Below, piece after piece: positions 4,482-51,419 of a DNA stretch of 53,367 bases. Position 1 is the first letter of the stretch. Each line of letters starts with the position of its first letter. A model generated the notes under the pieces. The model searched no databases, was not told the DNA's origin, and worked only from the letters and a program-made list of their open reading frames with translations. The position numbers were made by a program, and so were the translations under genes. The stretch comes from a virus (lineage: Duplodnaviria > Caudoviricetes), in the IMG/VR virus record IMGVR_UViG_3300003886_000006, positions 1 through 53,367 of that record, one strand, 5' to 3'.

Positions 4482-4832
4482 TCAATCATCGCCGGGTGTC
4501 TCGATTGCCCAAGTCGGGTCGCCCGCGTTGTCGGCGATACTCCGACCGAGTCGGCTCCAGTCCTCCTCGTCACCGTCGCGTTTGAGTTCGTAGAGGGCGG
4601 CGCGAGCTTCCGTGTCGGTCGGGTCGGTCGGGTCGGCTACGGTGACGGTCCCAGGTTCGACCTCGGCGTCGACCCAATAGTCGATGTCGTACACATCGGT
4701 CGGGTCGTCTTCGGCGTGATACAGGATCGACGCCCACGTGTACCAGACGTCACCGTCTTGCTGATAAGAGAGGCCGGCTGTCCGGGTCTCTTCGAGTGAT
4801 CGACCGCTCGGGTCAGTTTTCGTTGTCGCCAT
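4482..4832 (-). CDS. Hypothetical acidic protein
   Basis: AGAGGAG RBS before MATTKT; D/E-rich. Confidence 0.7.
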   Translation of the reverse strand: MATTKTDPSGRSLEETRTAGLSYQQDGDVWYTWASILYHAEDDPTDVYDIDYWVDAEVEPGTVTVADPTDPTDTEARAALYELKRDGDEEDWSRLGRSIADNAGDPTWAIETPGDD

Positions 4833-5112
4833 TGTCTGTTGTGCTCCTCTGTTCGTCTGGTTCGGTAAAACTGATTGTCGCGGTGGTTGCTGTGGGGATC
4901 TGGTCGGCGGTCGCACCGTACTGTCGCGCCTGCGCGACCCAGTAGTGCCGCTGGTTGATTTCTGACTGTAAAGCGCCTAGGGCTCGCGCAATGTTCGTAT
5001 CGACCCAGTCGATCATGTTGAGACTCAATTTGCGTCGTTCCTGTTCGTCTATCGCCATGCGGTAAGTGTTGATCTTTCGGTCTGTTTTCCAATTTGGTTG
5101 TTCTGTCGCCAT
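4813..5112 (-). CDS. Hypothetical protein
   Basis: AGAGGAG RBS; 99-aa helical ORF. Confidence 0.7.
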   Translation of the reverse strand: MATEQPNWKTDRKINTYRMAIDEQERRKLSLNMIDWVDTNIARALGALQSEINQRHYWVAQARQYGATADQIPTATTATISFTEPDEQRSTTDNGDNEN

Positions 5113-5188
5113 TGTCTGTCGTCTCCTCTAGTCGTCTGTTCTCTTCCCGTCTCTTCCCACGTCTCTTCTACCGCCCCCCACATCTCTT

Positions 5189-5281
5189 CTACCGTCGATG
5201 TCGTGTCCGGTCGATTAGGTACAGCAGTATCGGCCAGATGGCTAGTGCTGCGGCTGTGGCGAGGAGCGTTGTGGTGGTCAT
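5189..5281 (-). CDS. Putative 30-aa membrane microprotein (MTTTTLLATAAALAIWPILLYLIDRTRHRR)
   Basis: Hand-translated; ATGA-coupled to the upstream gene; one hydrophobic helix and a basic tail. Confidence 0.45.
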   Translation of the reverse strand: MTTTTLLATAAALAIWPILLYLIDRTRHRR

Positions 5282-5472
5282 CGGCTGTTCGTCGTCCCGG
5301 TTTGTACGCGTACGACGAAGATCGGTCCCACCCAGTACAGATGGACCAGGTTGACGGTTCCCGGCAGCGCTATCCGTTCGAAGCGTCTGCCGGTTGGTCC
5401 GCGTTTCGCGTCGTCTTTGCGGCGACGGTAGATGGTGAAGGTGGAGTTGCGTAGGTGTGGATGTGGCCTCAT
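5278..5472 (-). CDS. Hypothetical basic protein
   Basis: AGAGGAG RBS before MRPHPH. Confidence 0.55.
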   Translation of the reverse strand: MRPHPHLRNSTFTIYRRRKDDAKRGPTGRRFERIALPGTVNLVHLYWVGPIFVVRVQTGTTNSR

Positions 5473-5515
5473 TGTTCGTCGTCTCCTCTGTATTGTTCGT
5501 CGTCTCCTCTGTCTG

Positions 5516-5773
5516 TCAGTATCCCATCTCCATCTCATGCATCATGATGTTGTAGTTGTCCCATTCCTCTTCGGTTGTGACGCGTTTACTGTGGCAATGA
5601 TCGCATGGATGATCATATGTACCGCTCATGTAGTTGTCGACGAAGTCAGATCCTTGTTCATCCATCTCGTCCGCGGTGTACGCGTATCCGTGGAGAGTTT
5701 GTGTGCCGCGTCCGTGACAGAGCGGGCAGACAATGTAGGGTCCGTGTTTGGTGTCGCCGGTCATGGTTTCCAT
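5516..5773 (-). CDS. DnaJ-like zinc-finger small protein
   Basis: CPLCHGRG...CDHCHSKR motifs; GGGAG RBS. Confidence 0.75.
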   Translation of the reverse strand: METMTGDTKHGPYIVCPLCHGRGTQTLHGYAYTADEMDEQGSDFVDNYMSGTYDHPCDHCHSKRVTTEEEWDNYNIMMHEMEMGY

Positions 5774-5831
5774 ACTGTCTCCCTTGTTTGCGCGCGCGTG
5801 TTCTTCCGTGCGCGTCGGTCCGCCACCAACG

Positions 5832-5847
5832 GTAGCAAATCTGCTAC
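5832..5847. promoter_or_regulatory. Operator-like palindrome GTAGCAAATCTGCTAC upstream of the early-type operon
   Basis: One mismatch from the 1979-1996 palindrome core; overlaps a minus-strand TACCGT. Confidence 0.55.
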
Positions 5848-5914
5848 ACGATGCCTAGGGCCAATATCTGCCAGCCGCCACCAACAACCAGGTCTACACC
5901 ACCAACAACCAGAC

Positions 5915-6056
5915 CAGACATATCCGACCAGTCCCATTCCGCCACACACACATATCCGATAACCATATTCTGACTACACACACATATCCGATAGCCACAT
6001 TCTCACACACACACATATCCGATATGTTGCCAATATCGCATACACATGTCTGATAG
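5915..6056. repeat. Phased direct repeats (core CATATCCGAT, iteron-like)
   Basis: Cores start at 5919, 5951, 5983, 6014 and 6045 (outer two degenerate); period 31-32 bp. Confidence 0.8.
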
Positions 6057-6296
6057 GTGGAGGCAGACAGACGTTAGATGACGGTTATGTGGGATATAGG
6101 TGGCGTGTCATGCGGACAGCAAAAACACATTAGGTTTACCGAATACTAGACACTGCTTTACTGCCACATATTGGAAGGGATTTGGTGGTGTGGGGTAGCT
6201 GATGGGTTGACGTGTTCGGGTTGGATCTGCCCGGTAAAGCTACTATCCATTCACTATTCGGCATCTAGCATCTGATGTTCGATACCTGATAGTTGA

Positions 6297-6312
6297 TGTT
6301 TCACGTGGAACA
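6297..6312. promoter_or_regulatory. parS: parS site 1 (ParB/Spo0J binding site)
   Basis: TGTTTCACGTGGAACA; the reverse complement TGTTCCACGTGAAACA fits the chromosomal consensus TGTTNCACGTGAAACA. Confidence 0.9.
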
Positions 6313-6436
6313 TCGGCCGGCCATCTACGTTACGCGCCAGCCGTCATCGACCAGTAGATATTCGGTTAAGCGGATATTCGGTTAACCAAATACATGCCCA
6401 TTTCTCTGTCACCAGCCGACACATGTTTCCGTCTGA

Positions 6437-6452
6437 TGTTTCACGTGGAACA
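6437..6452. promoter_or_regulatory. parS: parS site 2
   Basis: Identical 16-mer 140 bp downstream, in the identical 21-mer TGATGTTTCACGTGGAACATC. Confidence 0.9.
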
Positions 6453-6855
6453 TCCGCCTGCTTGCCTATCTTTCCTCTATCTGACAGCAGCCGAAACGCT
6501 ATCTACTCTTACCCATCCTTACATGCTTCTAAATAACATCAACCTATGATCGTTAAACAATGTTATCTATCATCGAATATCACACATATCACTGTATAAA
6601 GATGGTAGAAAATCCCAACCCCGGCCCGAAAAGGCAGAATATGGGAGGACATGCCCCCCGCAAATTTTCACCCAAAACTACTGGCGGTTAAGAAAGATTA
6701 GATGGAGTAGAGGGGTGGAAGAGAAGAAGTAGAGAAGGAAGGTAGAGGAGTGGTGGAGTAGAAAGGTAAGGAACGGTGGGTAAAGGGTGAAACGACAGCG
6801 GGGTGGAAAGCAACCGCCTCCCCACCCCACCACCTCAACAACAACCTATCAACAA

Positions 6856-7236
6856 TCAGCTATCCGCCACATCCCCATACAACGGTGTGGCTGCAACCCC
6901 CAACATCCGTTCCGCCCACGGATATCTGCGACCCAGCCAACGCGCCGCGACATAATACAACGCGGACAGGCCATTCGACATTGCGATAATGACCGATGCG
7001 GAAGTCGAATCGGAGACGACAATGTTGAACTGGCGGGCCAGCAACGTTACCAGATAGCCGACTGCGATCGGAGTCAACGTGCGGATATGGCCGATAATGT
7101 AGTCGGATAGGACAGAACGCGGACGGGGGCTTTGCATAGAAGACACGTTGAGATTGAAACCCGAACCGGCCGGACCGTCTGCCGGACCGTCTGTCGAACT
7201 GTTTGAACTGTTCGGACCGTCACCTACAATTTCCAT
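6856..7236 (-). CDS. Putative holin
   Basis: Two hydrophobic segments (IRTLTPIAVGYLV; SALYYVAARWL); directly follows the endolysin. Confidence 0.75.
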   Translation of the reverse strand: MEIVGDGPNSSNSSTDGPADGPAGSGFNLNVSSMQSPRPRSVLSDYIIGHIRTLTPIAVGYLVTLLARQFNIVVSDSTSASVIIAMSNGLSALYYVAARWLGRRYPWAERMLGVAATPLYGDVADS

Positions 7237-7264
7237 AACATCCTCTCCTTACCTTCTTACTTCC

Positions 7265-8386
7265 TTACTTCCTTACCTTCTTCACCAAACTGTCCAGCCG
7301 TCCGCCGACCGCATTCAAATCGCGGGTGATCGACGACATAGCCACCTCGCAGCTAGACAAACCTGTCTTCAACTTGGCAATATCCGACCCGATCTGAGTC
7401 AAAATCGGATCAGATATGCGGCGCAGGTTACGGTCAAACGTCGCCCCCATCGTAACCTGCAACAGACTGGCGAACATTTTGCCGGTCACAATCGAACCGC
7501 GATCAGACGGGGCAGCACCCGGGATCTGGCCGACCGCGTCAGCCGTCCTATCCCCATACACGCCGTCCTCAACCAGACCGGTGTTATACACGTCGTTTAG
7601 TAGAGACTGGATCACCGCAACATCGGACCGTTTAAAGGCGCGAACCCCGGACCCGTCACCCCGTTTGATAGGTAGAAAAGGCATATCATCTCCTCCGATC
7701 GGACTGTTTGAAAAGTCAACCATACGATTCGTAACTAAACCTAGGAACTGTTCCCATTCGTTACTGTTGAAACCCGGATCGGTGCGGCGGGTAGGGTCCA
7801 GATTGGTGTGGCCGGTGAACCCGGCTAAACCCGAATCGACCTCAGCTTTCGTACGGAACACAACCGGAATCGAATACAACGACGCGACCTTCGCACATTC
7901 GATAGCCGCTGCCTCCAACAGGGCGGTTTTAAACCAGACAGGGACAGTCCCCCACTTGGCTGCCCGAGTCGCAATCTCAACACCCCAACCCCGCGTGTTG
8001 TAGCCGCGGACGTGAAACGCGACCGCAGTCGAAGGGAGCAGATGGACAGTCGAATCGGAATCGACAACCACATGGGCGGACGCAGGGCGGGCGTTACCGG
8101 TGAAATATTTGGCAACAGACTCCGCACCCGAATCGGGTGGGATAAAATCGGGGATGTTCTCCGCAGTATGAACAACGATAATGTCGGGGGCGCGGCCAGC
8201 CCGACGCGACGGGTAACCCCAAAAACGCAGCCCGTTAGACCTGACCGGCGCAAACCGGTTCTGATGGGTGAAAAGGAAATATGAAGCAGGGGGAGAAGGG
8301 GAAGCAGGGGAAATGGGGAAAGAAGGTTTAGCAGATTTGATATGTGACATCGATGGCATCCTTTCCGAAATCTGAGGCAACGTCAA
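7265..8386 (-). CDS. Endolysin: Amidase_2 N-acetylmuramoyl-L-alanine amidase with peptidoglycan-binding domain
   Basis: IVVHTAE, SAHVVVD, AFH, GVEI, GHTNLDPTRRTDPG amidase motifs; C-terminal IQSLLN...EDGVYGDRT. True start may lie downstream of 8386. Confidence 0.9.
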   Translation of the reverse strand: MTLPQISERMPSMSHIKSAKPSFPISPASPSPPASYFLFTHQNRFAPVRSNGLRFWGYPSRRAGRAPDIIVVHTAENIPDFIPPDSGAESVAKYFTGNARPASAHVVVDSDSTVHLLPSTAVAFHVRGYNTRGWGVEIATRAAKWGTVPVWFKTALLEAAAIECAKVASLYSIPVVFRTKAEVDSGLAGFTGHTNLDPTRRTDPGFNSNEWEQFLGLVTNRMVDFSNSPIGGDDMPFLPIKRGDGSGVRAFKRSDVAVIQSLLNDVYNTGLVEDGVYGDRTADAVGQIPGAAPSDRGSIVTGKMFASLLQVTMGATFDRNLRRISDPILTQIGSDIAKLKTGLSSCEVAMSSITRDLNAVGGRLDSLVKKVRK

Positions 8387-19197: not shown

Positions 19198-19739
19198 ATA
19201 TCAGGTGATTCGGTGTTCGCCGCCTGGGCGGTGAGGAAAACTTTGATCAGCTCCGCGTTGTTCCAACTGTCAGAGTTGAACATCTCTTTAGCCTGATCGA
19301 GACTGATTTTCGGTTCAACCGACGCAGCCGCAACCAGTTCAGGTGGGAACGTTTTCGTGTTGAAAATCGACCCGTCCTTCTTATCTTCCTGATCCGGCTT
19401 GTTACGTCGAACCATCGACTCGAACGCGGGACGACCAATCGAACGGAACGAGAAAGTGACGATTGTGCCCTCAGCTTCAACCAGCAGCCGGTCCAGTTCA
19501 GCTTGAACATCCGGTTCCTTATCAGGCATGTTCGATCTGCGGTCCTCATGACGGACCTCAATCAGCCGCTTCTGCATCTCCTCTATTTTGACAGCCATCT
19601 CACCGTCAATTTGGATGCGGACAGTGTGGACGATTGCCTTCTTCGCCGCGAGGATCTCCGCCATCGTTGAATGCTGCTTGGTTTGCTTAGCCTGCTTGTT
19701 GATCTGCTTATCGCCGGTCTGCTCATCGAGCATATGCAT
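19146..19739 (-). CDS. Tail assembly chaperone (lambda gpG equivalent)
   Basis: Between major tail and tape measure genes; ends just after the slippery site. Confidence 0.85.
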   Translation of the reverse strand: MHMLDEQTGDKQINKQAKQTKQHSTMAEILAAKKAIVHTVRIQIDGEMAVKIEEMQKRLIEVRHEDRRSNMPDKEPDVQAELDRLLVEAEGTIVTFSFRSIGRPAFESMVRRNKPDQEDKKDGSIFNTKTFPPELVAAASVEPKISLDQAKEMFNSDSWNNAELIKVFLTAQAANTESPDIPLFSNVSAVTPATESK

Positions 19740-19783
19740 CTCCTAGGTTTCTTAGCCCTTAGATTCTGAATGTTGAGAGGACA

Positions 19784-19813
19784 GCTAGACCCGTTAACCG
19801 TAACGGGTCTAGC
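19784..19813 (-). terminator. Hairpin after the major tail gene
   Basis: 13-bp perfect stem GCTAGACCCGTTA/TAACGGGTCTAGC, 4-nt loop. Confidence 0.65.
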
Positions 19814-19884
19814 CGACATGTTAAACCATGTTAAACATCTGAGGAGCTGTTTGGTTGTTACGACTGTTACAACCGTTACAACTG

Positions 19885-20376
19885 TTATGCGACGACTGCG
19901 TTCAAAACCGGGTCGGCTTGCAACGCGTATGTGCAAACAAACCGCATCACATCGCCGCGGGCCAGACGGGTGTTGGACCGTTGCGACACCCGCACCTTCC
20001 ACACTTCCACCACATCAGCTACCGCAATCGCGTTTGACGCACCGGAACCGCCGAACCGGGCAATAACCAGATGGGTGTCTTTCAGACGGGGCTGGGCGGT
20101 CCAAGCCGTGTCGGCACCACCGGCTGTCGCATCATCCCGGTAATATTCACCGGTGACTGTCCCGCCGATCGTAGCCGGAACCGACTTGTCACGGGGCGAC
20201 GACAGGTCCGACGAATCAGCGTCGGTGCCTTCCTCCGGTGTGTCAATCCCTGCTGGGGTTAGAAACGGTGTCACTTCACTACCGGCAGTGATCTCAACTA
20301 GCGTCGGGGCGGCAGTGTTCGCGATCGTGTCAACAACATGGACTTTAGTAAATCCGTCGGGGGTGAGTCGGGCCAT
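19885..20376 (-). CDS. Major tail (tube) protein
   Basis: DGFTKVHVVDTIANTAAPTLVEI...G actinophage tube-type N-terminus; GAGGAG RBS; synteny. Confidence 0.88.
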   Translation of the reverse strand: MARLTPDGFTKVHVVDTIANTAAPTLVEITAGSEVTPFLTPAGIDTPEEGTDADSSDLSSPRDKSVPATIGGTVTGEYYRDDATAGGADTAWTAQPRLKDTHLVIARFGGSGASNAIAVADVVEVWKVRVSQRSNTRLARGDVMRFVCTYALQADPVLNAVVA

Positions 20377-29044: not shown

Positions 29045-30535
29045 CTACGGTCCGTCAATCGTCCCTCGTAGCTGCACCGCAGTCTCATATGTGGCTGCAA
29101 TCGTATCTTCACGGGCCTGTTCGGTAGCGATCTCTTCGTCTTTCAACCTGACGATCTCTTCAATCTCACTAGGTCGCAACCCGAGCTGCTTGACGATGTA
29201 ACGGAACGGTAAACCAATCTTAACCATCGCCTGTGCTTCTGCCAGGATTGCGAGACGATACTCGTATCTCGGATCTTTCCACAGCATGTCCCCGAGCCGC
29301 AACATGTCCGGTTCAACCCCGTCAACATAGACAGCCATCAGTCTGGCCACGTCAACCCACCGGTTCGCCAAAATCACCTGCTTGCGCGCCACCTTGTCGT
29401 TCAACGGTTTGTCTTCAATCTGCAACGAGTCGCCGCTGGGCGCGTCACCTCGCCCACCCCGATCCGATTTGAGGAAATATCGGACAGGGGTCCGCGATGT
29501 GAACGCGATATGTTGCAGCCACATTTCAATCACAGTGATATATGTGGAAGGGTCCGCGGCCTCAAACTGGCCGAACTGGCTGGGGACGACACGGTTATCT
29601 GCGTCAAAGGTCGGTTTGAAATGCCACGTCACCCCCGGCCCTGCGTTCCATCCGCCAACCGGTTCCGAAGCGATAGTCTCCACCCAACGCTGATTGAACG
29701 CTTGGAAACTTCCGGTCACCATCATGTCAACCAGCGTCTTGTTCAACGCGTCCTGCTGGCGGGTCGCGTCGGCAATCTCAGATCTGAACGACACGTTCGG
29801 AAATTCAACAACCGGAACTTGACCGAACCGGTGCGGCAACGGCCACGGTTCCCCAAGGACTTCACGTCGCGTCAACCCGTCAAGGCTACCGACCATCGAA
29901 GCAATCTCGTCGTACGCGTCGGTCGACGACGCTTTCAAACTCGCATCGCTGCCGTCCCGCACTTTGAACTTCCAAGCAGCCTTATCGGTGTAGACAGTGA
30001 CCAGCACATCGCCGTCTTCCGTCTCCCACCGTTTCACCGCCCACACTGCCCGTTTCCGATCATCATTCGAATATCGGACACGGATCAGAGACGCCGGTTG
30101 CCAGTCGAGTCGTGCCCCGCCACGTTCTTCATCCGGCCAAACTATCGCATACGCGGTTGATTCAACCAGCGTCCCTTGATGTAGATAAAACTGTTCCTCT
30201 TCGATCTCGTTGGCGCGAAACACATCCCACAGACGGTTGGCCGCATCCAGGTTCTCATCGTCGTCAGTTTTAATCCCGGTCAAAATCAGTTTGTCCAACA
30301 CGACATCGACTATCGGCCGCATCCAATTATCAGAGAACCCTTTGAACGCGGCCCCGAACGTGTCGGTGAAAGTTTTGGTTGAAAACGTTAACGGCTGGTC
30401 ACCGTCGAAGTAGCTGCGTAACCGTTGAAACTCGACTTCGTTGGCGGTTAAAGTCTCGAACTCTTTCCGCAAAATAGCTTCACGGATAAGGTTGGCGATA
30501 CCTGAGTCACCGAATGTTGTAGTCATATGGCTCAA
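29045..30535 (-). CDS. Portal protein (SPP1 gp6-like)
   Basis: YFDGDQPL, NWMRPIVD, HRFGQVPVVEFPN, PSGDSL motifs. Confidence 0.92.
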   Translation of the reverse strand: MSHMTTTFGDSGIANLIREAILRKEFETLTANEVEFQRLRSYFDGDQPLTFSTKTFTDTFGAAFKGFSDNWMRPIVDVVLDKLILTGIKTDDDENLDAANRLWDVFRANEIEEEQFYLHQGTLVESTAYAIVWPDEERGGARLDWQPASLIRVRYSNDDRKRAVWAVKRWETEDGDVLVTVYTDKAAWKFKVRDGSDASLKASSTDAYDEIASMVGSLDGLTRREVLGEPWPLPHRFGQVPVVEFPNVSFRSEIADATRQQDALNKTLVDMMVTGSFQAFNQRWVETIASEPVGGWNAGPGVTWHFKPTFDADNRVVPSQFGQFEAADPSTYITVIEMWLQHIAFTSRTPVRYFLKSDRGGRGDAPSGDSLQIEDKPLNDKVARKQVILANRWVDVARLMAVYVDGVEPDMLRLGDMLWKDPRYEYRLAILAEAQAMVKIGLPFRYIVKQLGLRPSEIEEIVRLKDEEIATEQAREDTIAATYETAVQLRGTIDGP

Positions 30536-30589: not shown

Positions 30590-30847
30590 TCAAACTTCAA
30601 CTCTCGGCATCAAATCATAGAGGTATCCGCGCAGGATAGAGTCTACATGTGGCCAGCATCGTCGGCATTCCAACACTGCCTCCCCGGTCCGGTCATCATA
30701 TCTCTCCGCGTAATACAGATGACCGTTGAGTTTACAGATGAGACGTTTACGGCGAATCTTGGCCAAATCCTGTCGGGTCAAAACAGGTCCATCAGTTGAC
30801 CCACCAGTCGATTCGCCAGTCAACCCGGCAACTAGTTCAATAGCCAA
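30590..30847 (-). CDS. Small Cys/His protein (LICKLNGH...CRRC)
   Basis: 85-aa ORF coupled to the terminase gene. Confidence 0.6.
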   Translation of the reverse strand: MAIELVAGLTGESTGGSTDGPVLTRQDLAKIRRKRLICKLNGHLYYAERYDDRTGEAVLECRRCWPHVDSILRGYLYDLMPRVEV

Positions 30848-32441
30848 AATGCACCCCGGCGAGATGTTTCATCCGGTCCTGCTTCTCCTGCTGCCCTCTC
30901 CGCCCGGCACTTTCAACCCTCGTCACCGACCCGCCACTAGCCATCCGTGTTTCCCTAGTTAAACAGACGATCCCTTTAGACGCTGCATCCACCTGATCGT
31001 CATGGTCCCCTTCCGGGAAGGTACCACATTCGGCTAAGAAGTCTTCATTCCACGGTCCGCGCACAATATAGAAATGGCCGGTGTGAATCAGCGACGCTAA
31101 CCCTTTCGCATGTTGCTCCTTCGTTCCGGTGGCGAACAGGCCACGGACGGTGTAGCCGGGGAGGAGACTGTTTTTGTAGCGCCACACCAGCGACTTCCCG
31201 GCTGATCCGCGTTCCTGCTCAACCCATATCGGCACTCCGGCACCGTCGCGGCGTGCGTCACTTTTCACATTCATGTCGACAATCCCCGGGTTGTCACGGA
31301 ACCGGTTCATGTCGAACAGGTAGTAGTCGCGGATTGGCAAAATGTGTTCACCGGTGCGAGGATCGATCATCCGATGTCCACGCGCCAACGTACGCCCAAT
31401 CTTCGCCCCCGCAGTCCAGTCCGGGTTCGGGTTCAAATCGGTCTTTTTCGTTGCAGCGAAATCCCAATATCGGATAATGTTTTCGAACGTCGCCGCAGGT
31501 GGCACATCAGACCAGTCGACGATTTCGATCTGCTGCGGGTTGATGAAACCACCGGACGATGTTGCCGACCAGTCACCGTGACGTAGCTGATTGTAGGTGA
31601 CCGATTCGCCATCATCAGTAATCATCACTTTCAACGATTCGACATATTCTTCCCGGTCTATATGTGGGTTGTCGTCGAGGGTCGCGGAAAGGAACTTGCG
31701 GGTAACACTCTGCGGATACACCGGGCCGTGCGGCAGCTTCCACCGTTTCCTCACCCACTCGTGCCCCGGACCTCCCGGGTTCGACGCGGAACGCACCCGG
31801 GAAGGTATCGGGAAGTCTTTGAGGCGACGGATACGGGAATACAGGTAGAGGTATTGGTATTCGCGAAGTTGCGTCAACTCGTCGAAACAGACGATGTTGT
31901 ATTCGCCGCCCTGATAGTTCAGCTCGTCGCCTTCATGTTCCAAATACCCAAACTTGATGCTTGCACCTGACGGGAAAGTCCAGATGTTGTTGTTGCCATC
32001 CCAATGTGCTTTCGACCCGGAAAACCATTCATGGGAACGGTGAATCAAACCGCCCGGCTGGGAAAGCTGTTTGAATGTGCGACGGATAATCAGCGCCTGT
32101 GTCGGATATTCGTCAATGTCACGGGCAGCTTCCATGAGTAGAGCCGAAGATTTTCCAGGTCCGGCCGCGCCGCCAAATAGTACCTCTAACGTGTCGTAGA
32201 GAAGAAGGAACGCGTGCTGTTTAGGGTGCGGTATTTCCGGAATGAACTTCGACAACCTCAGCTTCAACGATCTCGAAATCGTCGCTATCTGAGCTTCTGT
32301 TAAGTTCTCCAAGTCCTCCGGCTTTAGGTTCACATCCAGACTCAGATTCGGACGGTCCGGGTTTGGTTCCGTCCCCGGTTCCGTCCCCGGTTCCAAGCTC
32401 GAAAGCTCCGGTCGATTTGAGGGCTGCAAGGATTTCTCCAA
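30837..32441 (-). CDS. terL: Terminase large subunit
   Basis: Walker A GGAAGPGKS, Walker B VCFDELTQ, ASNPGG, nuclease YWDFA and HDDQVDA. Confidence 0.97.
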   Translation of the reverse strand: MEKSLQPSNRPELSSLEPGTEPGTEPNPDRPNLSLDVNLKPEDLENLTEAQIATISRSLKLRLSKFIPEIPHPKQHAFLLLYDTLEVLFGGAAGPGKSSALLMEAARDIDEYPTQALIIRRTFKQLSQPGGLIHRSHEWFSGSKAHWDGNNNIWTFPSGASIKFGYLEHEGDELNYQGGEYNIVCFDELTQLREYQYLYLYSRIRRLKDFPIPSRVRSASNPGGPGHEWVRKRWKLPHGPVYPQSVTRKFLSATLDDNPHIDREEYVESLKVMITDDGESVTYNQLRHGDWSATSSGGFINPQQIEIVDWSDVPPAATFENIIRYWDFAATKKTDLNPNPDWTAGAKIGRTLARGHRMIDPRTGEHILPIRDYYLFDMNRFRDNPGIVDMNVKSDARRDGAGVPIWVEQERGSAGKSLVWRYKNSLLPGYTVRGLFATGTKEQHAKGLASLIHTGHFYIVRGPWNEDFLAECGTFPEGDHDDQVDAASKGIVCLTRETRMASGGSVTRVESAGRRGQQEKQDRMKHLAGVHFGY

Positions 32442-40505: not shown

Positions 40506-40826
40506 TTACCCCATCACCCCTCTACCCCTCTCCCTTTCCCTTCCTTCCCCTTCCCCTTCCATCCTCATCTTTTTAACCTGATACCGGTCCCGTCGTAACA
40601 TCCCACCCCACATCCCTCGAAGCTGGTTGGTGGTGATCGCATAGTTGAGGCAGTCGGCCCGCACTAAACACCTTCCACATATTTTCCGTGCTTGAACTGT
40701 CGATTTGCCTTGAAGTGGGAAGAAAATGTCGGTGTCCATACCGGTACATGCCGCCTCTTCACGCCACTCGTTGGCTGCACCCCAAATGTTGCGGCTGGGT
40801 GACATGTCTGTTCTTTTCACTGTCAC
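40506..40826 (-). CDS. whiB: WhiB-family Fe-S transcription factor
   Basis: W.EEAAC...DIFFP...ICGRCLVRADC...GMWGG: four Cys plus the GxWGG turn. Confidence 0.95.
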   Translation of the reverse strand: MTVKRTDMSPSRNIWGAANEWREEAACTGMDTDIFFPLQGKSTVQARKICGRCLVRADCLNYAITTNQLRGMWGGMLRRDRYQVKKMRMEGEGEGRERERGRGVMG

Positions 40827-41785: not shown

Positions 41786-42123
41786 TGATGGCGACTGTTA
41801 CCGACGTAACGTGATCCACGAACTTCGACACGAAGGGTAAGCAAGTCGTGGGCGAGCCGATTAACGAACAACGCATCAGCCTTTAACTGCTTAGCCATAT
41901 CAGTTGTCACGGCTATTCCAGTTTCCTTCGCCATGTCGGCTTCGGTTTCGAAGTCACAGCCGATACGCATCAGCTCATATATTCGCCTCTTACCTGGGGT
42001 CAACTTCGCAATTCGATTCAACCGATCCTGCAACTTTCGTTCCTGCTTCGTCGTCGTTCGAATTCGTCGCGTAATGTTTGCAGCGTCAGCAATACCCGTA
42101 GCATCTACAGCAGTATCCATCAT
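41755..42123 (-). CDS. Hypothetical protein, possible HTH
   Basis: LTPGKRRIYELM...TEADMAKETG. Confidence 0.6.
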   Translation of the reverse strand: MMDTAVDATGIADAANITRRIRTTTKQERKLQDRLNRIAKLTPGKRRIYELMRIGCDFETEADMAKETGIAVTTDMAKQLKADALFVNRLAHDLLTLRVEVRGSRYVGNSRHHWDHTCEPRP

Positions 42124-43331
42124 GTTCCCTTGTAGTTGAGGATTTGTCTAAGCTCGACTTTGATTTCAACGAGATCAGCTTGAAGTGCCATGACACGATT
42201 GATGTCTTTATAGGATCGCGGGTCTTCGTCGATAAGCAATGCAGCCTTGTCCTTCAACCACGTTTTGCCTTTCATCAAATCGGTGAGTTCGTCTGCGGTG
42301 AACTGTCTCTTCGCGGCTTTCCGCGACATTCGTCTCCCTGCCCCATGTGCCGATGATTGGAAAGACGCTTTGTTGCCTTTACCTTTCACAATGAAGCTGT
42401 TGGTGCCCATCGACCCTGGCACAACTCCCCAATCACCCACGCGGGCGCGGATAGCTCCTTTACGGGTGATCCACAGGTTCCGCCCCATGTGATTTTCAAG
42501 GGCGATATAGTTGTGATGACAGTTGATGCGGCGACGTTCTGAGATGCTATCAAGCTTCTCTTTGGAGACAGCAACTGCTATCGCGTCAAGTACTGCATCC
42601 ATCATCGCTTCCCGGTTAGCTAAAGCATATCTCTGCGCCCACATGAGGTCTTCGATGTAGTGGGTGAACTCCTCAGTATCTTCAACGAAATAGGCCAGGT
42701 CCGGATCATCAAGCTGAATGAACCGACGCTTCATATCTCCCTTAGCTGTCTCGATATGCTTCCGAGCCAAAATATTGCCCACACCGCGAGAGCCGGAATG
42801 TAACACAACCCAAACACCCGGATCGGAGCCAGACGTGGCAACAAGATTTTCCTCATAGAGGGCTTCGACAAGACAGATTTCAACAAAGTGGTTGCCGGAA
42901 CCTAGAGATCCGAACTGGTTGACGGTGCGTTGCTCCAAACCGCATTCTTCCACCGACTCGTTCGGATTGGCACGTATCCACGCATCCCCCATATTGGAAT
43001 GTTGATGGCCTTTACCAACACCGGCCGGAACTGTCTGCTCAATATGTGACAGGAGTGGTCCTAAATCGTCGGGCAGATCGGAAGCGTCGAGGGTGGTTTC
43101 TACTGCAATCATGCCACAACCGATATCTACCCCTACTGCGGCAGGCATGATGGCCCCTCGGGTCGGGATCACCGACCCTATTGTTGCTCCCATGCCAAGA
43201 TGAGCATCAGGCATGAGAGCGACATGGGGCGACACGAAAGGCATGTCACCACTACGGGTTGCCTGTTCGACCACATTGTCTTCAAGATTGTCGGCCCACG
43301 ATAAAACATGGGGGGTGAGTCTCTTAGGCAT
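42120..43331 (-). CDS. rtcB: RtcB RNA ligase
   Basis: PDAH, VGVDIGCG, GSGNHF, HSGSRG, HHN, RKGA, PGSMG, SAHGAGR, YKDI motifs all present. Confidence 0.97.
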   Translation of the reverse strand: MPKRLTPHVLSWADNLEDNVVEQATRSGDMPFVSPHVALMPDAHLGMGATIGSVIPTRGAIMPAAVGVDIGCGMIAVETTLDASDLPDDLGPLLSHIEQTVPAGVGKGHQHSNMGDAWIRANPNESVEECGLEQRTVNQFGSLGSGNHFVEICLVEALYEENLVATSGSDPGVWVVLHSGSRGVGNILARKHIETAKGDMKRRFIQLDDPDLAYFVEDTEEFTHYIEDLMWAQRYALANREAMMDAVLDAIAVAVSKEKLDSISERRRINCHHNYIALENHMGRNLWITRKGAIRARVGDWGVVPGSMGTNSFIVKGKGNKASFQSSAHGAGRRMSRKAAKRQFTADELTDLMKGKTWLKDKAALLIDEDPRSYKDINRVMALQADLVEIKVELRQILNYKGT

Positions 43332-43512
43332 CTTCCCCTCCTGTAGGCTTCATAGCCCTTTTACCCTCATACATATATTCAGCTAGTTCCTCCGCGTATT
43401 CAATCAGCTCTTTCGCGGTCGGCGGCCGATCAGTTTGACTTCTCGGCTTCAACATTGATGCAGCCAGCTTCAACCCGTTGTATCTCCGCTCACCCATCGA
43501 CAGTACACTCAC
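43324..43512 (-). CDS. Hypothetical small protein
   Basis: GGAGG RBS; overlaps both neighbours. Confidence 0.65.
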   Translation of the reverse strand: MSVLSMGERRYNGLKLAASMLKPRSQTDRPPTAKELIEYAEELAEYMYEGKRAMKPTGGEDA

Positions 43513-44180
43513 AGCGCCTCCTGTAGCCTTTCAGCAGTCTTCTTCCCGATCCCGTCTATCGCCAACATTTCCTCATATGTCATGGTCCATGTCATCGGCA
43601 CCATCCCGCCGTTCGCATCCAACATTTTCTTCGCCATGTCCGGTCCGATACCGGGGAACGATTGCAACACATGCAACCCGAATCCTTGATCCCCGACTTT
43701 CCCCCACGAATTTCTGGTCGGCCCTGGCCGCCGTTTCAAACTGGTGTGTTTCCCTTTCTTCACCCATTTCTCTAACGACCTGATCAGGTCGGCTGTTTCT
43801 GTCAACCCTCGCACCCACAGCACCGGCACACCGAATTCGAACATGAGGGTGAAGAACAGGCCGTGGAGTTGATGCAATGTGAGCCGCGACCAGCTATCCC
43901 CTAGTAGCACCCCGTCGCTGGTCCACTCCCCGTAGCCTTCTAACACCAGCAGCACCTGCTTCAACCCGCCCATCATTTGCAACTGTTGATATAGCCGTCC
44001 GTCGTCTAAAGAGTTGAGCAGGTCGTTTGGGAACTGTTTGCGTTGTATCCCGATCCGGTGTTTCCCGGCGAGCACTAGAAAGTCACAGCCGTGCCGTTCC
44101 GGCTCAGACGATGTTGAACCGATATCGTCTAGCTGCTGTCGTAGCTGTTGAGGTTCGGTGGGGGAGATAAGAACACTCAT
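43509..44180 (-). CDS. ERCC4/XPF-family structure-specific nuclease with tandem HhH
   Basis: GCDF...IQRK...DLLNSLDDGRLYQQ; GIGPDMA and GIGKKTA hairpins. Confidence 0.9.
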   Translation of the reverse strand: MSVLISPTEPQQLRQQLDDIGSTSSEPERHGCDFLVLAGKHRIGIQRKQFPNDLLNSLDDGRLYQQLQMMGGLKQVLLVLEGYGEWTSDGVLLGDSWSRLTLHQLHGLFFTLMFEFGVPVLWVRGLTETADLIRSLEKWVKKGKHTSLKRRPGPTRNSWGKVGDQGFGLHVLQSFPGIGPDMAKKMLDANGGMVPMTWTMTYEEMLAIDGIGKKTAERLQEAL

Positions 44181-45076: not shown

Positions 45077-46093
45077 TCAACCTACTTTCTTCACCGACGG
45101 GTACCGGTACTCTTTCTTATCTTTGCACTGCTCGATCGTCTCTTTCAACTTCACTTCTTCCATCTTCAACTTTTCAGCCAGCTTCCCCACATTCAGATAC
45201 CCACGCGACCCGCCTTGGCCTTTGATTTGCCAACCGCCGACGATCCGCACTGTCCCTTTCGCGACGATCTCATTGATCCTCTTGTTCACATCCCGGCGTT
45301 CCTCTTCCGCCATTTTCCCTCGCGCCATCACTTTGCTCAGCTCACTGTGATGTTCAGCTAAGCCGACTAGCACCGCGTTGGTCACATCGTCGATCGGGTC
45401 ACTACCGACATCATCTTCCACACCGAACGGGTTGTCGTCGTCGTGCAGATACGGGTATGGGCAGAAGAACTTTTCGCTGGCTTCCACGTCGCACGGTGGC
45501 AGCTCGTTCTTCTTCCGCCACTTTTCCGCTTCGATAATCCGTCGCCGGATCTGTTTCCAACTGACCGGTGGCGTCGAAACATGTTGAATGTTCATCTCGC
45601 CGCTGTCGCGACATTTCACCACATATTCGGCTTCAAGCCCATAGTGATGCATTTCGATACTGATCTGATACCCGTATTTGACAAACTCGGGGGACATGAG
45701 GGCGGTGGTCGCGTCGGTGAAACTCAACCATTTCTTGTACCGCGCTTTCGACATCGTTTTGATTTCAATCACCCGATCTTTGCGGGCACGCGGCGGTCGA
45801 CCCAGCCCGTCGGGGTGGAAACGGATGAAGACGCGGGGGATGATTTTCACGTCAACCTGATCCTGTTGACTGTGGATCTTCCAGCCTGCTTCCCGTAACG
45901 CTTCGATAATCACCGGCTCATGCATGACCCCTTCGGCTGCGGCGGTGTTCATTATCCGGTCGGCAAATTGGGAACGGTTCTCCGCGTATCCTTGCATCGC
46001 GGCGACTATCGCACGGACACAAGTGCCGGAACCGGAAGCTCGGTAGATGGAAGTGTCGTTTTCGCGGTAGCCGATTGGCCGATTGTCACTCAC
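45077..46093 (-). CDS. Cas4/RecB-like PD-(D/E)xK exonuclease
   Basis: RAS...C.R, G..HE, HPDG, EIKT, YQ, terminal C...FCPY...; GTG start after AAGGAG. Confidence 0.85.
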   Translation of the reverse strand: MSDNRPIGYRENDTSIYRASGSGTCVRAIVAAMQGYAENRSQFADRIMNTAAAEGVMHEPVIIEALREAGWKIHSQQDQVDVKIIPRVFIRFHPDGLGRPPRARKDRVIEIKTMSKARYKKWLSFTDATTALMSPEFVKYGYQISIEMHHYGLEAEYVVKCRDSGEMNIQHVSTPPVSWKQIRRRIIEAEKWRKKNELPPCDVEASEKFFCPYPYLHDDDNPFGVEDDVGSDPIDDVTNAVLVGLAEHHSELSKVMARGKMAEEERRDVNKRINEIVAKGTVRIVGGWQIKGQGGSRGYLNVGKLAEKLKMEEVKLKETIEQCKDKKEYRYPSVKKVG

Positions 46094-46115
46094 GTCGCAG
46101 TCTCCTTCTATGTTC

Positions 46116-46219
46116 GGAACTGTGGGGTCGAACAAGCGTGGAAGACACACGCAGCCGGATATTTAACCCCACAGTTCCTATATGCTTCCCTAGCCTCCGG
46201 TATCTGGGCTTCGGGAAGC
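46116..46219 (-). other. Two stem-loops upstream of the Cas4-like gene
   Basis: 13-bp perfect stem GGAACTGTGGGGT/ACCCCACAGTTCC, plus a GCTTCCC/GGGAAGC stem. Confidence 0.65.
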
Positions 46220-47715: not shown

Positions 47716-49935
47716 CTATATCGCATGTTTGTTCCGATTCTTTCTCCTAGCCTCGGCAGCTTTAACCAATGGTTTGGATTTCGGATTGTTCTTCGACAAC
47801 ACCAACGCCTCTTTCCACCATTTGGGAAACAGATGCTGACTGTCGCGGTACAGTCGGAGGAAAGACTGGTCAAGAATATACGTGTCACACCAGTCGTCTT
47901 TGCTTCTCATTCCCCGACCGGTCATTTGCACTATGGCACGGATAGTTTGAACCGCATACCATGTCTTGCCACCGCGCGCATACATTCGCGCCTTCACCAT
48001 CTTGTCCCCCAGATACGGGTATGGCACTTTCGCGATCACGATCACTTCACATTCGTCACCCGGCAGGTCAATGCCACGTTCAAACGATGGGGCCAGCATC
48101 ACACTGTCTTTACCTTCCAGGAACCGGGCTAAAGCCGCATCCCGTTCCTTCGCGTTCCAATATGTCATCACACGACTGTTGTCAAGACTGTTGTACAGGT
48201 ATCGTGTCAACTCGTAGCTGATAGTGTGGATCAGTATCCGCGCGTTCAAATTCGCATCTAATACCTCTCCGATCTGTTCCGCCAGAATCGGATACGCCTT
48301 GTCTTTCGTCTTCATCGTCACCCGGGTCTTCCCGACGTTAAACACGGGTCGGCTGGCCGCGGGGAAGGTGGATGCCATTTCGACATGCGCCCATTCGTGG
48401 TTTTCCAATCCAAGATCCTGCGCCATCTGCTGCGGGGAGATCAGTGTGGCGGACATCAGCAGGAACCTTTTTCCGGTTCGCCACAGCACATCGTTTGCGA
48501 CGTCATCAACCCGAATCGGTTTCCACACTAGCACCGCGTCGCTGTCCCTTTCGGCCCGCTCATAGCCGGTTAGCACCCATGAGCCGTCCAGCCCGTCTTC
48601 CCCTTCTTGACGGTCCAACATTTGACGTATCTGCCCTTTGAGCCGCCCTAACCGTTTCCTTTCCCGCCCTGTCTTCACCGCGCTGCCGAACATGGACGGT
48701 TGCCGTCTCATCTCGTCTTGCCGTTCAGTGATGGCAGGCAACATTTCGTCAACTAGCCACCGTGCCCAATCGGTCGCGACAGTCTTTTTCGGAATCGTGC
48801 CAACCCCGAGCTGTCTGCGAACATGCGGTCCGATCACCACTTCAACATGCCCCATCAGTTGCTGCTCGATCGTGTCAGCTTCGTCGACTATCACCAGGTC
48901 ACGACCGACGAACTGTGACACAACATTACGTGTCTCATACAGATAGTATGCGGTGTTTAAAACCCCTAGCAGCGCCCTCGCCGCCCGGTCTTTAGCAACC
49001 TGATACGGGCAGCTATGCATCGACGGACACCATGAGCACGATGTTGGCCCTTCACTCCACGACCCGTCGCAATCTTCTGTGGATAGGTCAGGTCGCAGTT
49101 CCGTCGGATAGTTCCCGCGGCCCTTCACCATTTCACTGTACGGGAAATCATCGGCTATCTGGTTTTGCAACGATTTGGTGGTGCAAACAAACGGGGTGGG
49201 GCGATTACCGGTTTGTAGCCTTCGCACCATTTCACTGATAATCGTCTTCCCTGATCCTGTAGGCGCGGACAGGAACACGACTTTACGCCCATCGTTGTAA
49301 TGGCCGATGATTTCCCGTATCGCCTGCCACTGGCCGTCGCGAAACTCGGTGAACTGTGGCGGCATCGGGATGTTGCCGAACATCGGATGGGACAGGGACG
49401 GCGGGTCGACAGGAAGGTTGTTGAGGAGTTTGGAGGTAGATGAGAGAGAAGGGGGGGAGGATGATGCGGACAGGCTCTTTTCCTTATCCCTTTTCTCGCC
49501 TTCCTCCTCGCCGCGTCGTATCTCTAAAAACTGTTGCCCTTTCCCCTGCTCCTTTTTCTCCCCACCTTTACCTTTTCCCTTACCTTTTCCCTTACCCTTC
49601 CCCTCATCTTCCCCCTCACCTTCCCCCTTCCCCCTATCTTCCCAATAGTCCATTTTGCCGCGGCGACACAGCACTACAGCTAACACATGGCTGCACATGC
49701 TTTTTCGTCTCGTCTCCCCGTAGCTACTGGTATGGCAGCTACATCGGTATTTCGTTTCCCCGTCACGCATCTCAACATGGTATTGGGGGTACGAGTCGCC
49801 TAGCTTCTTGTCCCCTTCTATCTGCCATTGGGAGTCACCCAAGTTCACGACGCGACGCCTCTTAGCCCGTTTAGTCAGCGATGCGCGTGCTTTTACCGGG
49901 GTTGAGCTGACGGTCGCCCACTGGTCTCTACTCAA
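47716..49935 (-). CDS. dinG: DinG/XPD-family SF2 helicase with N-terminal SWIM zinc finger
   Basis: SWIM CSC...CSH; Q motif FRDGQ; APTGSGKT; Cys cluster; VDEAD; MSAT; RGIDLPGD; QMTGRGMRSKDD. Confidence 0.92.
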   Translation of the reverse strand: MSRDQWATVSSTPVKARASLTKRAKRRRVVNLGDSQWQIEGDKKLGDSYPQYHVEMRDGETKYRCSCHTSSYGETRRKSMCSHVLAVVLCRRGKMDYWEDRGKGEGEGEDEGKGKGKGKGKGKGGEKKEQGKGQQFLEIRRGEEEGEKRDKEKSLSASSSPPSLSSTSKLLNNLPVDPPSLSHPMFGNIPMPPQFTEFRDGQWQAIREIIGHYNDGRKVVFLSAPTGSGKTIISEMVRRLQTGNRPTPFVCTTKSLQNQIADDFPYSEMVKGRGNYPTELRPDLSTEDCDGSWSEGPTSCSWCPSMHSCPYQVAKDRAARALLGVLNTAYYLYETRNVVSQFVGRDLVIVDEADTIEQQLMGHVEVVIGPHVRRQLGVGTIPKKTVATDWARWLVDEMLPAITERQDEMRRQPSMFGSAVKTGRERKRLGRLKGQIRQMLDRQEGEDGLDGSWVLTGYERAERDSDAVLVWKPIRVDDVANDVLWRTGKRFLLMSATLISPQQMAQDLGLENHEWAHVEMASTFPAASRPVFNVGKTRVTMKTKDKAYPILAEQIGEVLDANLNARILIHTISYELTRYLYNSLDNSRVMTYWNAKERDAALARFLEGKDSVMLAPSFERGIDLPGDECEVIVIAKVPYPYLGDKMVKARMYARGGKTWYAVQTIRAIVQMTGRGMRSKDDWCDTYILDQSFLRLYRDSQHLFPKWWKEALVLSKNNPKSKPLVKAAEARRKNRNKHAI

Positions 49936-50072
49936 AACAGTTCCACATGTTTACGTCTCCACGTCTCCACAATCTCCACGTCCAAGATAGATAATAGTGG
50001 CAGTATAGCAGGGGTAGTCAAGAAAACTTACCCCCCCTTACCCCCCTTACCCTTCCCCTTCCCCTTCCCCTT

Positions 50073-51065: not shown

Positions 51066-51419
51066 ATGGCTTACGCCCTTCTTTCCACTCCGACTGCACT
51101 CAGCCAGGCTGGGGTGGTCAACCCAACGTTTCAGGTCGCGGTTGTCGGCGGTCACATGTTCGCCAACGACGGCCGTGTGTTTCTCGAAATCAGAAACGAT
51201 GATGCGGCAGCAAAAACGATCACGATTCCGACCGGTGAAGTGTTGCAGGGGGATCTTGCAGTTGGTGACCGGACGATGGTTATCCCTGCCGGTCAGGTTG
51301 GCTACATCGGACCGTTTCCGCAGAAACCGTACAATCAGGTTTCGGGGGCGGACGCGGGGAACGTGTACATCGATTACAGCGCGGTGACTGCGGTGACGAT
51401 TAAAGCGTTCCGTGTGTAG
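51066..51419 (+). CDS. Virion structural-type beta protein; the only convincing plus-strand gene
   Basis: GAAAGG RBS; GHMFANDGRVFLEIRN...IGPFP...YNQ...VYIDYSAVT resembles small actinophage structural proteins. Confidence 0.8.
   Translation: MAYALLSTPTALSQAGVVNPTFQVAVVGGHMFANDGRVFLEIRNDDAAAKTITIPTGEVLQGDLAVGDRTMVIPAGQVGYIGPFPQKPYNQVSGADAGNVYIDYSAVTAVTIKAFRV

What the first reader, a model, noticed from the sequence alone, without database searches (positions are those of the whole stretch)
6294..6454. Two perfect chromosomal parS sites in a phage with no parA, parB or integrase: possible hijack of host ParB/SMC
Seen: the 21-mer TGATGTTTCACGTGGAACATC occurs twice, 140 bp apart, in the largest non-coding region. 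Its 16-bp core fits the bacterial parS consensus TGTTNCACGTGAAACA. I recognise no ParA, ParB, integrase or DNA polymerase gene. Known: parS is bound by the ParB CTPase clamp, which loads SMC, and Bacillus phage phi29 carries parS sites used by host Spo0J to trap its genome in spores. Inference: this phage may borrow the host segrosome purely in cis, to persist as an unintegrated carrier genome, to position its DNA or enter dormant cells, or to titrate ParB and disturb host segregation. I do not know of this in a likely actinobacterial phage.
Basis: partly seen in the sequence, partly recalled or inferred. Interest (0 to 1): 0.85.

Follow-up and report, generated by a model that had tools for sequence, protein, structure and literature searches.

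The report
Host-type parS pair in ParB-less actinophage
A complete 53-kb phage of an actinobacterial host carries two exact copies of the bacterial chromosome "centromere" site (parS) in its main control region but has no gene for the protein that reads it, so it probably loads the host's ParB onto its own DNA, as Bacillus phage phi29 is known to do.

Summary
The 21-mer occurs exactly twice (6294-6314, 6434-6454), with 0 expected by chance. Its 16-bp core fits the published chromosomal parS consensus, and no other parS-like site occurs in the genome.

The window is a complete, circularly closing phage genome. Six-frame HMM searches find no ParB, ParA, tyrosine or serine recombinase, or family A/B DNA polymerase. 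A WhiB gene points to an actinobacterial host.

The sites lie in a 1.08-kb non-coding control region between the lysis genes and the first early gene, next to other repeat arrays.

The "hijack host ParB" reading is plausible but unproven. The only close relative found (68% portal identity) has a differently arranged genome and an equivalent control region with other repeats and no parS. Conservation therefore gives no support.

The feature is not unique. The same 20-mer lies in 76 IMG/VR stretches. Of the 11 near-complete genomes tested, 0 encode ParB_N, yet they hold 1-32 parS sites each, and one is another WhiB-encoding phage. Cultured phages also carry such sites, and phi29 is the published precedent. 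This scan had already noted similar cases on other DNA.

Verdict: a real feature, a new member of a known kind, of moderate interest.

The parts
6294..6314 (.). parS-1: exact 21-mer; the 16-bp core at 6297-6312 reads TGTTCCACGTGAAACA on the minus strand
   Evidence: consensus from PMC7022226
6434..6454 (.). parS-2: identical 21-mer in the same orientation, 140 bp from parS-1; core at 6437-6452
5774..6855 (.). 1,082-bp non-coding control region between the end of the late (lysis) genes and the start of the early genes; largest gap in the genome, lower GC
   Evidence: no match in INPHARED or PLSDB
5915..6037 (.). Iteron-like tandem repeats at 31-32 bp spacing: three good copies of ACACACACATATCCGATA plus one degenerate copy, just upstream (in the direction of transcription) of the first early gene
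   Evidence: families D1, D2, D4
5878..5912 (.). Two exact copies of CCACCAACAACCAG, 21 bp apart
   Evidence: D10
6357..6388 (.). Two tandem copies of GATATTCGGTTAA between the two parS sites; an inverted partner lies at 6129-6145
   Evidence: D9, I2, I9
6500..6599 (.). AT-rich minimum (31% GC) next to parS-2
5516..5773 (-). First early gene downstream of the gap: 85-aa Cys-rich protein with a GGGAG ribosome-binding site upstream
6856..7236 (-). Last late gene: 126 aa, phrog_10742. Holin-like by position only
7265..8386 (-). Endolysin (Amidase_2 plus PG_binding_1)
40506..40826 (-). WhiB-like transcription factor, the marker for an actinobacterial host
   Evidence: 1.3e-19; 40581-40766, 71 bits; among the control genomes only C. 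glutamicum matched

Best explanation
The two sites are genuine chromosomal-type parS sites that the phage keeps in cis, with no reader protein of its own.

**Proposed mechanism (inferred)**
- In an infected actinobacterial cell, the host's ParB CTPase nucleates on them and slides onto neighbouring phage DNA.
- ParB thereby brings its usual partners to the phage genome: ParA, SMC, and polar or septal anchoring.
- The most likely benefit is positioning and inheritance of an unintegrated phage genome. This would be a carrier state or entry into dormant cells or spores, analogous to phi29 with Spo0J.
- A side effect or alternative benefit is modulation of the adjacent early-gene control region by ParB clamps.

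**Shown versus inferred**
- Shown: the sequence identity to parS, the duplication of the site alone, the non-coding location at the late/early junction, the absence of phage ParA/ParB/recombinase, and recurrence in other ParB-less phages.
- Inferred: ParB binding in vivo and every downstream consequence.
For: 1. There are two exact 21-mers with a 16/16 parS core, 0 expected by chance, and no other such site in the genome. The consensus comes from PMC7022226.
2. Only the site itself is repeated. The flanks are unrelated. This argues for selection on the site and against a passive segmental duplication.
3. The same 14-mer variant GTTTCACGTGGAAC is a natural member of clustered chromosomal parS sets in three Actinomycetota genomes (8, 3 and 8 sites; reversed-pattern control 0). 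The 20-mer lies in at least 120 bacterial genome stretches. By my reading of the names, 45 of the 80 titles shown are Actinomycetota.
4. The six-frame searches for ParB_N, HTH_ParB, AAA_31, CbiA, integrase and resolvase were all empty. No partition family appeared among 61 ORFs scanned with Pfam or among 41 scanned with NCBIfam.
5. The feature recurs. Of 40 IMG/VR records holding the same 20-mer, 1 has a ParB_N match, and that is below the cut-off. Among the 11 that are at least 90% complete, 0 have one. Those 11 hold 1 to 32 parS 14-mers each. One of them, G011 (78 kb, terminal repeats), also encodes WhiB.
6. There is a published precedent. phi29 carries five parS sites, and host Spo0J is implicated in spore entrapment (PMC2731898, passages). 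My 32-base query recovers the phi29 family in INPHARED.
Against: - There is no conservation support. Of 46 portal-relative records, 0 carry GTTNCACGTGNAAC. The one close relative, G041 (syntenic, 50-77% aa identity), has its late arm inverted relative to the window. Its non-coding control region has different repeats and no parS.
- The phage has only two sites, and no ParA or other hint of a maintenance lifestyle. No repressor or integrase was found, so it looks lytic.
- The host genus is unknown, so I could not check that its ParB exists or prefers this variant.
- No read-level check of the assembly was possible.
- Part of the apparent recurrence is not independent. The 76 IMG/VR stretches fall into 25 similarity clusters, one with 43 members. 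At least one cultured phage with the same site, Microbacterium phage RobsFeet, does encode a ParB_N protein.
Confidence: 0.55

Rival explanations
1. The sites bind host ParB in vitro but are a functionless or nearly neutral passenger. They would have been acquired with the lineage-specific control region at the inversion junction, with no selected role.
For: They are absent from the only close relative and from all 46 portal-relative records tested. There are only two sites. The gap is lineage-specific DNA with no match anywhere searched.
Against: Two identical 21-mers with unrelated flanks are hard to get without selection. No flanking similarity longer than 26 nt was found to any of 120 bacterial parS loci, so there is no sign of a recently captured host fragment. 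Many unrelated ParB-less viral genomes keep such sites, some in arrays of 20-32.
Confidence: 0.2
2. The palindromes are operators for a phage-encoded or other host DNA-binding protein that is not ParB. They would be one part of the repeat-rich early control region, and the match to parS would be incidental or competitive mimicry.
For: The sites sit among three other repeat families in the early control region. The relative G041 has an analogous region with its own repeats. Small ribbon-helix-helix proteins and WhiB are encoded.
Against: A 16/16 match to a universal consensus is very unlikely to be incidental. No HTH_ParB or ParB_N fold is encoded. No candidate reader was identified.
Confidence: 0.13
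3. The region is a replication origin or packaging/terminus region, and the parS-like palindromes serve that function.
For: The gap holds iteron-like 31-32 bp repeats and a 31%-GC stretch. It is the start and end point of a unidirectional gene circle.
Against: None of the 30 DnaA-box-like matches in the window falls in the gap. No initiator, primase or polymerase was recognised. Nothing links the parS sequence itself to initiation or packaging. This reading is also compatible with, not exclusive of, ParB loading.
Confidence: 0.08
4. Assembly chimera: a piece of host origin-proximal DNA was joined into the phage contig.
For: No read-level check could be made. The gene order differs from G041 by an inversion whose junction is the gap.
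Against: The gap is non-coding and has lower GC than the phage. It has no similarity beyond the site itself to 120 bacterial parS loci. It is flanked on both sides by phage genes, and the contig closes on itself with a 91-bp overlap.
Confidence: 0.04

Closest known systems
Host-type parS sites of Bacillus phages phi29 and Nf, read by host Spo0J (PMC2731898, passages read)
   Same: Both are lytic-looking phages with no ParB of their own that carry chromosomal-consensus parS sites. The window's site query recovers the phi29 family in INPHARED.
   Different: phi29 has five sites, at least one inside the connector gene. Its host is a Bacillus spore former, and the system works together with Spo0A boxes at the early promoters. 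Here there are two sites, both in one non-coding control region. The host is actinobacterial and unknown. No experimental evidence exists, and spore formation by the host is unknown.
parABS cassettes of integrase-less cluster A mycobacteriophages (mentioned in PMC8612146, passage; the primary paper, Dedrick 2016, was seen only as a reference entry)
   Same: Both are actinophages without an integrase that carry centromere-like sites in the position where lysogeny functions usually sit.
   Different: Those phages encode their own ParA and ParB and, as I recall it, use phage-specific parS repeats. Here parA and parB are absent, and the site is the chromosomal consensus.
Chromosomal parS clusters of Actinobacteria, for example C. 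glutamicum with 10 sites of TGTTNCACGTGAAACA (PMC7022226 table)
   Same: The sequence is identical, and several sites cluster within a short distance.
   Different: These are chromosomal, origin-proximal, and accompanied by parAB. Here the sites are on a phage genome with no par genes.
Other ParB-less viral genomes with the same site in IMG/VR (G002, G004, G010, G011 and others), and earlier notes of this scan (e1-5677317, e1-5926125, e1-5959028)
   Same: They have canonical parS, no ParB_N, and mostly non-coding positions. G011 is another WhiB-encoding phage with two sites.
   Different: They are unrelated to the window; only weak TerL matches were found. Some have co-oriented arrays of 20-32 sites. 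These are unpublished observations, not established systems.

Membership tests
Chromosomal-type parS (ParB/Spo0J loading site) | 16-bp palindrome fitting TGTTNCACGTGAAACA | tested here: met
   Both sites are 16/16 on the minus strand. The consensus is from PMC7022226.
Chromosomal-type parS (ParB/Spo0J loading site) | Specific binding and CTP-dependent loading of ParB | not testable with these tools
   This needs EMSA, ChIP or a loading assay.
Chromosomal-type parS (ParB/Spo0J loading site) | Origin-proximal location next to parAB on a chromosome | tested here: not met
   The sites are on a phage genome with no par genes. No DnaA-box-like site lies in the gap.
phi29-type exploitation of host ParB by a phage | Host-consensus parS on a phage that has no ParB of its own | tested here: met
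phi29-type exploitation of host ParB by a phage | Host ParB-dependent segregation of the phage genome into spores or daughter cells | not testable with these tools
   The host genus is unknown and there is no experiment.
phi29-type exploitation of host ParB by a phage | Sites conserved among related phages | tested here: not met
   0 of 46 portal-relative records carry the site, including the close relative G041. Only one close relative was available.
Phage or plasmid parABS partition cassette (P1, cluster A mycobacteriophages) | parA and parB genes adjacent to the centromere | tested here: not met
   The six-frame searches were empty. No such family was found in 61 ORFs scanned with Pfam.
Phage-plasmid or episomal prophage | Replication initiator plus maintenance and immunity genes | tested here: inconclusive
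   No Rep, repressor or partition family was recognised. However, many small early ORFs have no known family, and iteron-like repeats are present.
Phage ParB/KorB-type dispersed operator system | A phage-encoded ParB-family protein plus many dispersed palindromes | tested here: not met
   There is no ParB_N or HTH_ParB. There are only two sites, and they are clustered.

The most novel reading that the evidence does not exclude
The 1.08-kb gap would be a cis-only maintenance and decision cassette that works entirely through host proteins.

- Host ParB loads at the parS pair.
- ParB then does two things. It tethers and partitions the unintegrated phage genome into daughter or dormant cells. As a sliding clamp, it also silences the adjacent iteron-controlled early promoters.
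- This would give a phage with no repressor, integrase or par genes a dormancy or carrier-state switch coupled to the host cell cycle.
- It would be one case of a widespread, undescribed strategy, also seen as 20-32-site arrays in ParB-less phages of about 100 kb.
Probability: 0.15. Interest if true: 0.8.

Novelty: new member of a known kind. Interest (0 to 1): 0.45.

Why it matters
If host ParB really loads on this genome, the phi29 trick of borrowing the host centromere reader extends to actinophages. Together with the many ParB-less viral genomes found here that carry the same site, that would suggest a common route by which "lytic" phages persist, position their DNA or disturb host segregation without encoding any partition gene. 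It would also give a simple cis element to test in tractable actinobacterial laboratory strains. This single case adds little on its own: it has two sites and no conserved relative.

Tried and rejected
- **Close relatives, single-protein scans.** Scans of IMG/VR with the endolysin and with TerL found no relative. The endolysin in JGI metagenome contigs found none.
- **Contigs I could not fetch.** Portal homologues at 71% (P0106, 54,169-bp contig) and an endolysin homologue at 51% (P0002, 52,383-bp contig) exist.
- **Gap DNA.** No match in INPHARED (near and distant) or PLSDB. No similarity longer than 26 nt to 120 bacterial parS loci.
- **Iteron 17-mer.** Two unrelated single hits in IMG/VR.
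- **Public sequencing runs.** None was listed for 4800-8300, so no read mapping, depth or termini check was possible.
- **Other sequence features.** No tRNA. No Rfam family at gathering score. No DnaA-box-like site in the gap. The RNA fold downstream of the last late gene was not better than shuffles (z = -0.41). No sigma-70-like promoter was scored inside the gap on the coding strand.
- **Host genus.** Not determined.
- **Literature.** Searches for host-ParB use by phages returned only the phi29/Nf work and phage-encoded parABS. I found no paper on orphan chromosomal parS in actinophages in those searches.

Full report
**1. The observation**

The 21-mer TGATGTTTCACGTGGAACATC occurs exactly twice, at 6294-6314 and 6434-6454. 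None of 100 dinucleotide-preserving shuffles gave a match. On the minus strand the 16-bp core reads TGTTCCACGTGAAACA. This fits the consensus that a review gives for chromosomal parS, "mainly TGTTNCACGTGAAACA", also listed there for the 10 sites of Corynebacterium glutamicum (PMC7022226, passages and table).

With up to three mismatches allowed, these two are the only parS-like sites in the 53,367 bases. That is 4 strand matches against 0.58 expected. An alignment of +/-50 bp around each copy shows that identity is confined to the site and a few flanking bases (family D6, 28 nt at 93%). What is repeated is therefore the site, not a larger segment.

**2. The genome**

The window is a whole IMG/VR virus record, classed as having direct terminal repeats. 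The first and last 91 bases are identical. Nearly all long ORFs are on the minus strand. In the direction of transcription the order is:
- small early genes (5773 down to 98);
- across the record ends, a DNA-metabolism module;
- small genes;
- the late genes and lysis genes;
- the 1,082-bp gap at 5774-6855.

The DNA-metabolism module holds:
- a helicase at 47716-49935;
- a Cas4-like exonuclease at 45077-46150;
- a Sak4/AAA_24 protein;
- an ERCC4+HhH nuclease;
- RtcB;
- a UDG-family protein;
- WhiB at 40506-40826.

The late genes run from a small-terminase family match through TerL (30837-32441), the portal (29045-30535), a 1,251-aa ORF that I take to be the tape measure from its size and position, and tail genes. 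They end with the endolysin (7265-8386, Amidase_2 plus PG_binding_1) and a 126-aa last gene.

The gap is by far the largest non-coding stretch and is lower in GC, with a minimum of 31% at 6500-6599.

Besides the parS pair, the gap holds several repeat families:
- iteron-like repeats at 31-32 bp spacing (5915-6037);
- two copies of a 14-mer (5878-5912);
- two tandem 13-mers that lie between the parS sites (6357-6388), with an inverted partner at 6129-6145.

No tRNA and no Rfam family was found.

**3. What the phage lacks, and its host**

Six-frame HMM searches of the whole record at E<=1 were empty for:
- ParB_N, HTH_ParB, AAA_31 and CbiA;
- Phage_integrase and Resolvase;
- DNA_pol_A and DNA_pol_B.

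In each case the same search did match most control genomes. Pfam scans of 61 ORFs and an NCBIfam scan of 41 of them showed no partition, recombinase, repressor or polymerase family.

The WhiB hit (1.3e-19; 71 bits) points to an actinobacterial host. Among the 14 control genomes only C. glutamicum matched. WhiB-like proteins are described as exclusive to Actinobacteria and their phages (PMC8612146, passage).

Portal relatives occur in 5 of 401 sampled Actinomycetota genomes, at 36% identity at best. The host genus could not be named. TerL is only 40% identical to its best match in INPHARED.

**4. Relatives**

Single-protein scans found no close relative. A portal alignment built (A2) retrieved 79 IMG/VR loci. 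I searched the records of 46 of them, leaving out 33, most of them on shorter contigs. Of those 46, 0 carry GTTNCACGTGNAAC.

Only one is close. G041 is 52,386 bp with a 144-bp terminal overlap. Its portal is 68% identical, and most genes are syntenic at 50-77% amino-acid identity. In G041 the late arm is inverted relative to the early and replication arm, so the two arms diverge from one point. In the window everything runs one way, and the gap sits exactly at the junction that this inversion creates.

G041 has its own non-coding region of about 700 bp at the start of its early arm. It holds different repeats (AAATACTGGAAA-like), none of the window's repeats, and no parS.

A repeat-rich early control region is thus a shared design, while the parS pair is an addition specific to this lineage. 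With a single relative at about 68% nucleotide identity, it withdraws support but does not disprove function.

**5. Is it captured host DNA or a chimera?**

- The gap has no match in INPHARED or PLSDB.
- Against 120 bacterial loci that contain the same 20-mer, no match exceeds 26 nt.
- The gap is non-coding and is flanked by phage genes on both sides.
- No public run was listed for this stretch, so the assembly could not be checked with reads.

**6. Context: the site elsewhere**

By my reading of the names, 45 of the 80 titles shown are Actinomycetota. Of the 120 eight-kb loci, 71 hold two or more parS 14-mers. In three Actinomycetota genomes the 14-mer occurs 8, 3 and 8 times in clusters, the phage's T/C-asymmetric variant is among them, and the reversed-pattern control gave none.

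*IMG/VR.* The 20-mer lies in 76 stretches. None is related to the window beyond weak TerL matches. They form 25 similarity clusters, one with 43 members.
- I tested 40 of their records, chosen for contig length of at least 10 kb.
- One has a ParB_N match, below the cut-off.
- Of the 11 that are at least 90% complete, 0 have one.
- Those 11 carry 1 to 32 parS 14-mers each. Three genomes of 104-117 kb have 20-32, and all their listed sites point the same way.
- One of the 11, G011 (78 kb), encodes two WhiB-like proteins. Its two parS sites lie outside any ORF of 100 aa or more.

*INPHARED.* A 32-base query around parS-1 at E<=10 matched 221 records:
- 37 Bacillus phages, including phi29, Nf and their relatives, which serve as a positive control;
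- 56 Microbacterium phages;
- 17 Gordonia phages;
- 8 Arthrobacter phages.

Microbacterium phage RobsFeet has the exact 22-mer inside gene 71, annotated "DNA binding protein", with no Pfam family. RobsFeet does encode a ParB_N protein elsewhere, so it is not an orphan case. Arthrobacter phage Emotion has an intergenic TGTTTCACGTGAAAC.

*This scan.* It had already noted orphan host-type parS on other phages (e1-5677317, e1-5926125, e1-5959028).

**7. Mechanism**

From established knowledge of ParB, it is a CTP-gated clamp that nucleates at parS, slides onto flanking DNA, and recruits ParA and SMC. This is summarised in PMC12704722 and PMC7022226 (passages). A perfect consensus site should therefore be loaded by the ParB of almost any ParB-bearing host.

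The best reading is that the phage exposes two loading sites so that host ParB assembles on its DNA. For phi29, the published role is Spo0J-assisted segregation of the phage genome into the prespore, together with Spo0A boxes that shut down the early promoters (PMC2731898, passages).

Here the parS pair sits 260-400 bp upstream of an iteron array and about 520-680 bp upstream of the first early gene. ParB clamps would therefore also cover the early control region. Which benefit applies is inference: inheritance of an unintegrated genome, positioning, silencing of early genes, or titration of host ParB.

I put the probabilities as follows:
- 0.55 that the sites are functional, host-ParB-dependent cis elements;
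- about 0.2 that they bind ParB but are passengers;
- about 0.13 that another protein reads them;
- about 0.08 that they belong to an origin or terminus function;
- about 0.04 that the region is an assembly artefact.

**8. Novelty and verdict**

In the searches I ran, the only published case of a ParB-less phage using host parS is the phi29 family. Actinophage papers describe phage-encoded parABS instead.

The present case is a new member of that known kind, in a different host phylum. It is one of many such genomes visible in public data. It is real and worth a simple bench test, but as a single example it is weak: two sites and no conserved relative. Interest is 0.45.

Noticed in passing
window whole genome; G041 (L157-L159): All long genes in the window run one way round the circle. 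The closest relative, G041, has the late arm (TerS to lysis) inverted, so its two arms diverge. The window's 1.08-kb gap lies exactly at the junction that this inversion creates.
   Followed up: partly
G041 about 19,440-20,170 (L157/L158): The relative's early control region is also non-coding and rich in repeats, but with different motifs (AAATACTGGAAA-like, several copies; TTTACTTGTTT twice) and no parS. The repeats look lineage-specific, as expected for sites of a phage-specific regulator.
   Followed up: partly
L038 1940-2005 (record G011, 78,430 bp): Another ParB_N-less, WhiB-encoding phage has two tandem TTATCCACA (DnaA-box-like) motifs about 30 bp upstream of a canonical parS. A second parS lies 874 bp away. 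It looks like mimicry of host origin-proximal elements.
   Followed up: partly
records G002 (116,662 bp), G004 (104,344 bp), G010 (111,555 bp): These IMG/VR genomes have no ParB_N match yet carry 24, 32 and 20 canonical parS 14-mers. The sites are clustered within about 10-20 kb, and almost all listed sites point the same way.
   Followed up: partly
L282 3501-3522 (Microbacterium phage RobsFeet, NC_047989.1): The exact 22-mer lies inside gene 71 ('DNA binding protein', no Pfam family). 56 Microbacterium phage records match the query. RobsFeet also encodes a ParB_N protein at 50019-50276, so it may pair a phage ParB with a host-type site.
   Followed up: partly
L002, L013, L021 and about 10 other loci of the 43-member IMG/VR cluster: In one large family of viral contigs the same 20-mer lies about 700 bp from a TerL-like gene, possibly inside a long ORF.
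   Followed up: no
window 6738-6772 and 7246-7280; 6690-6800: A 35-nt imperfect inverted repeat (74% complementary) brackets the last late gene. A long purine-rich tract on the + strand follows it.
   Followed up: no
window 51066-51419 (+): This is the only well-supported plus-strand gene: 117 aa, 74% identical to G041, matching phrog_38030 and phrog_16194. It sits in a 650-bp stretch with no minus-strand ORF inside the early and replication arm.
   Followed up: no
window 30837-32441, 42120-43331, 43509-44180: TerL is closest (40%) to Methanobacterium phage psiM2. The phage also encodes a full-length RtcB RNA ligase, apparently absent from G041, and an ERCC4/XPF-type nuclease with HhH motifs.
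   Followed up: no
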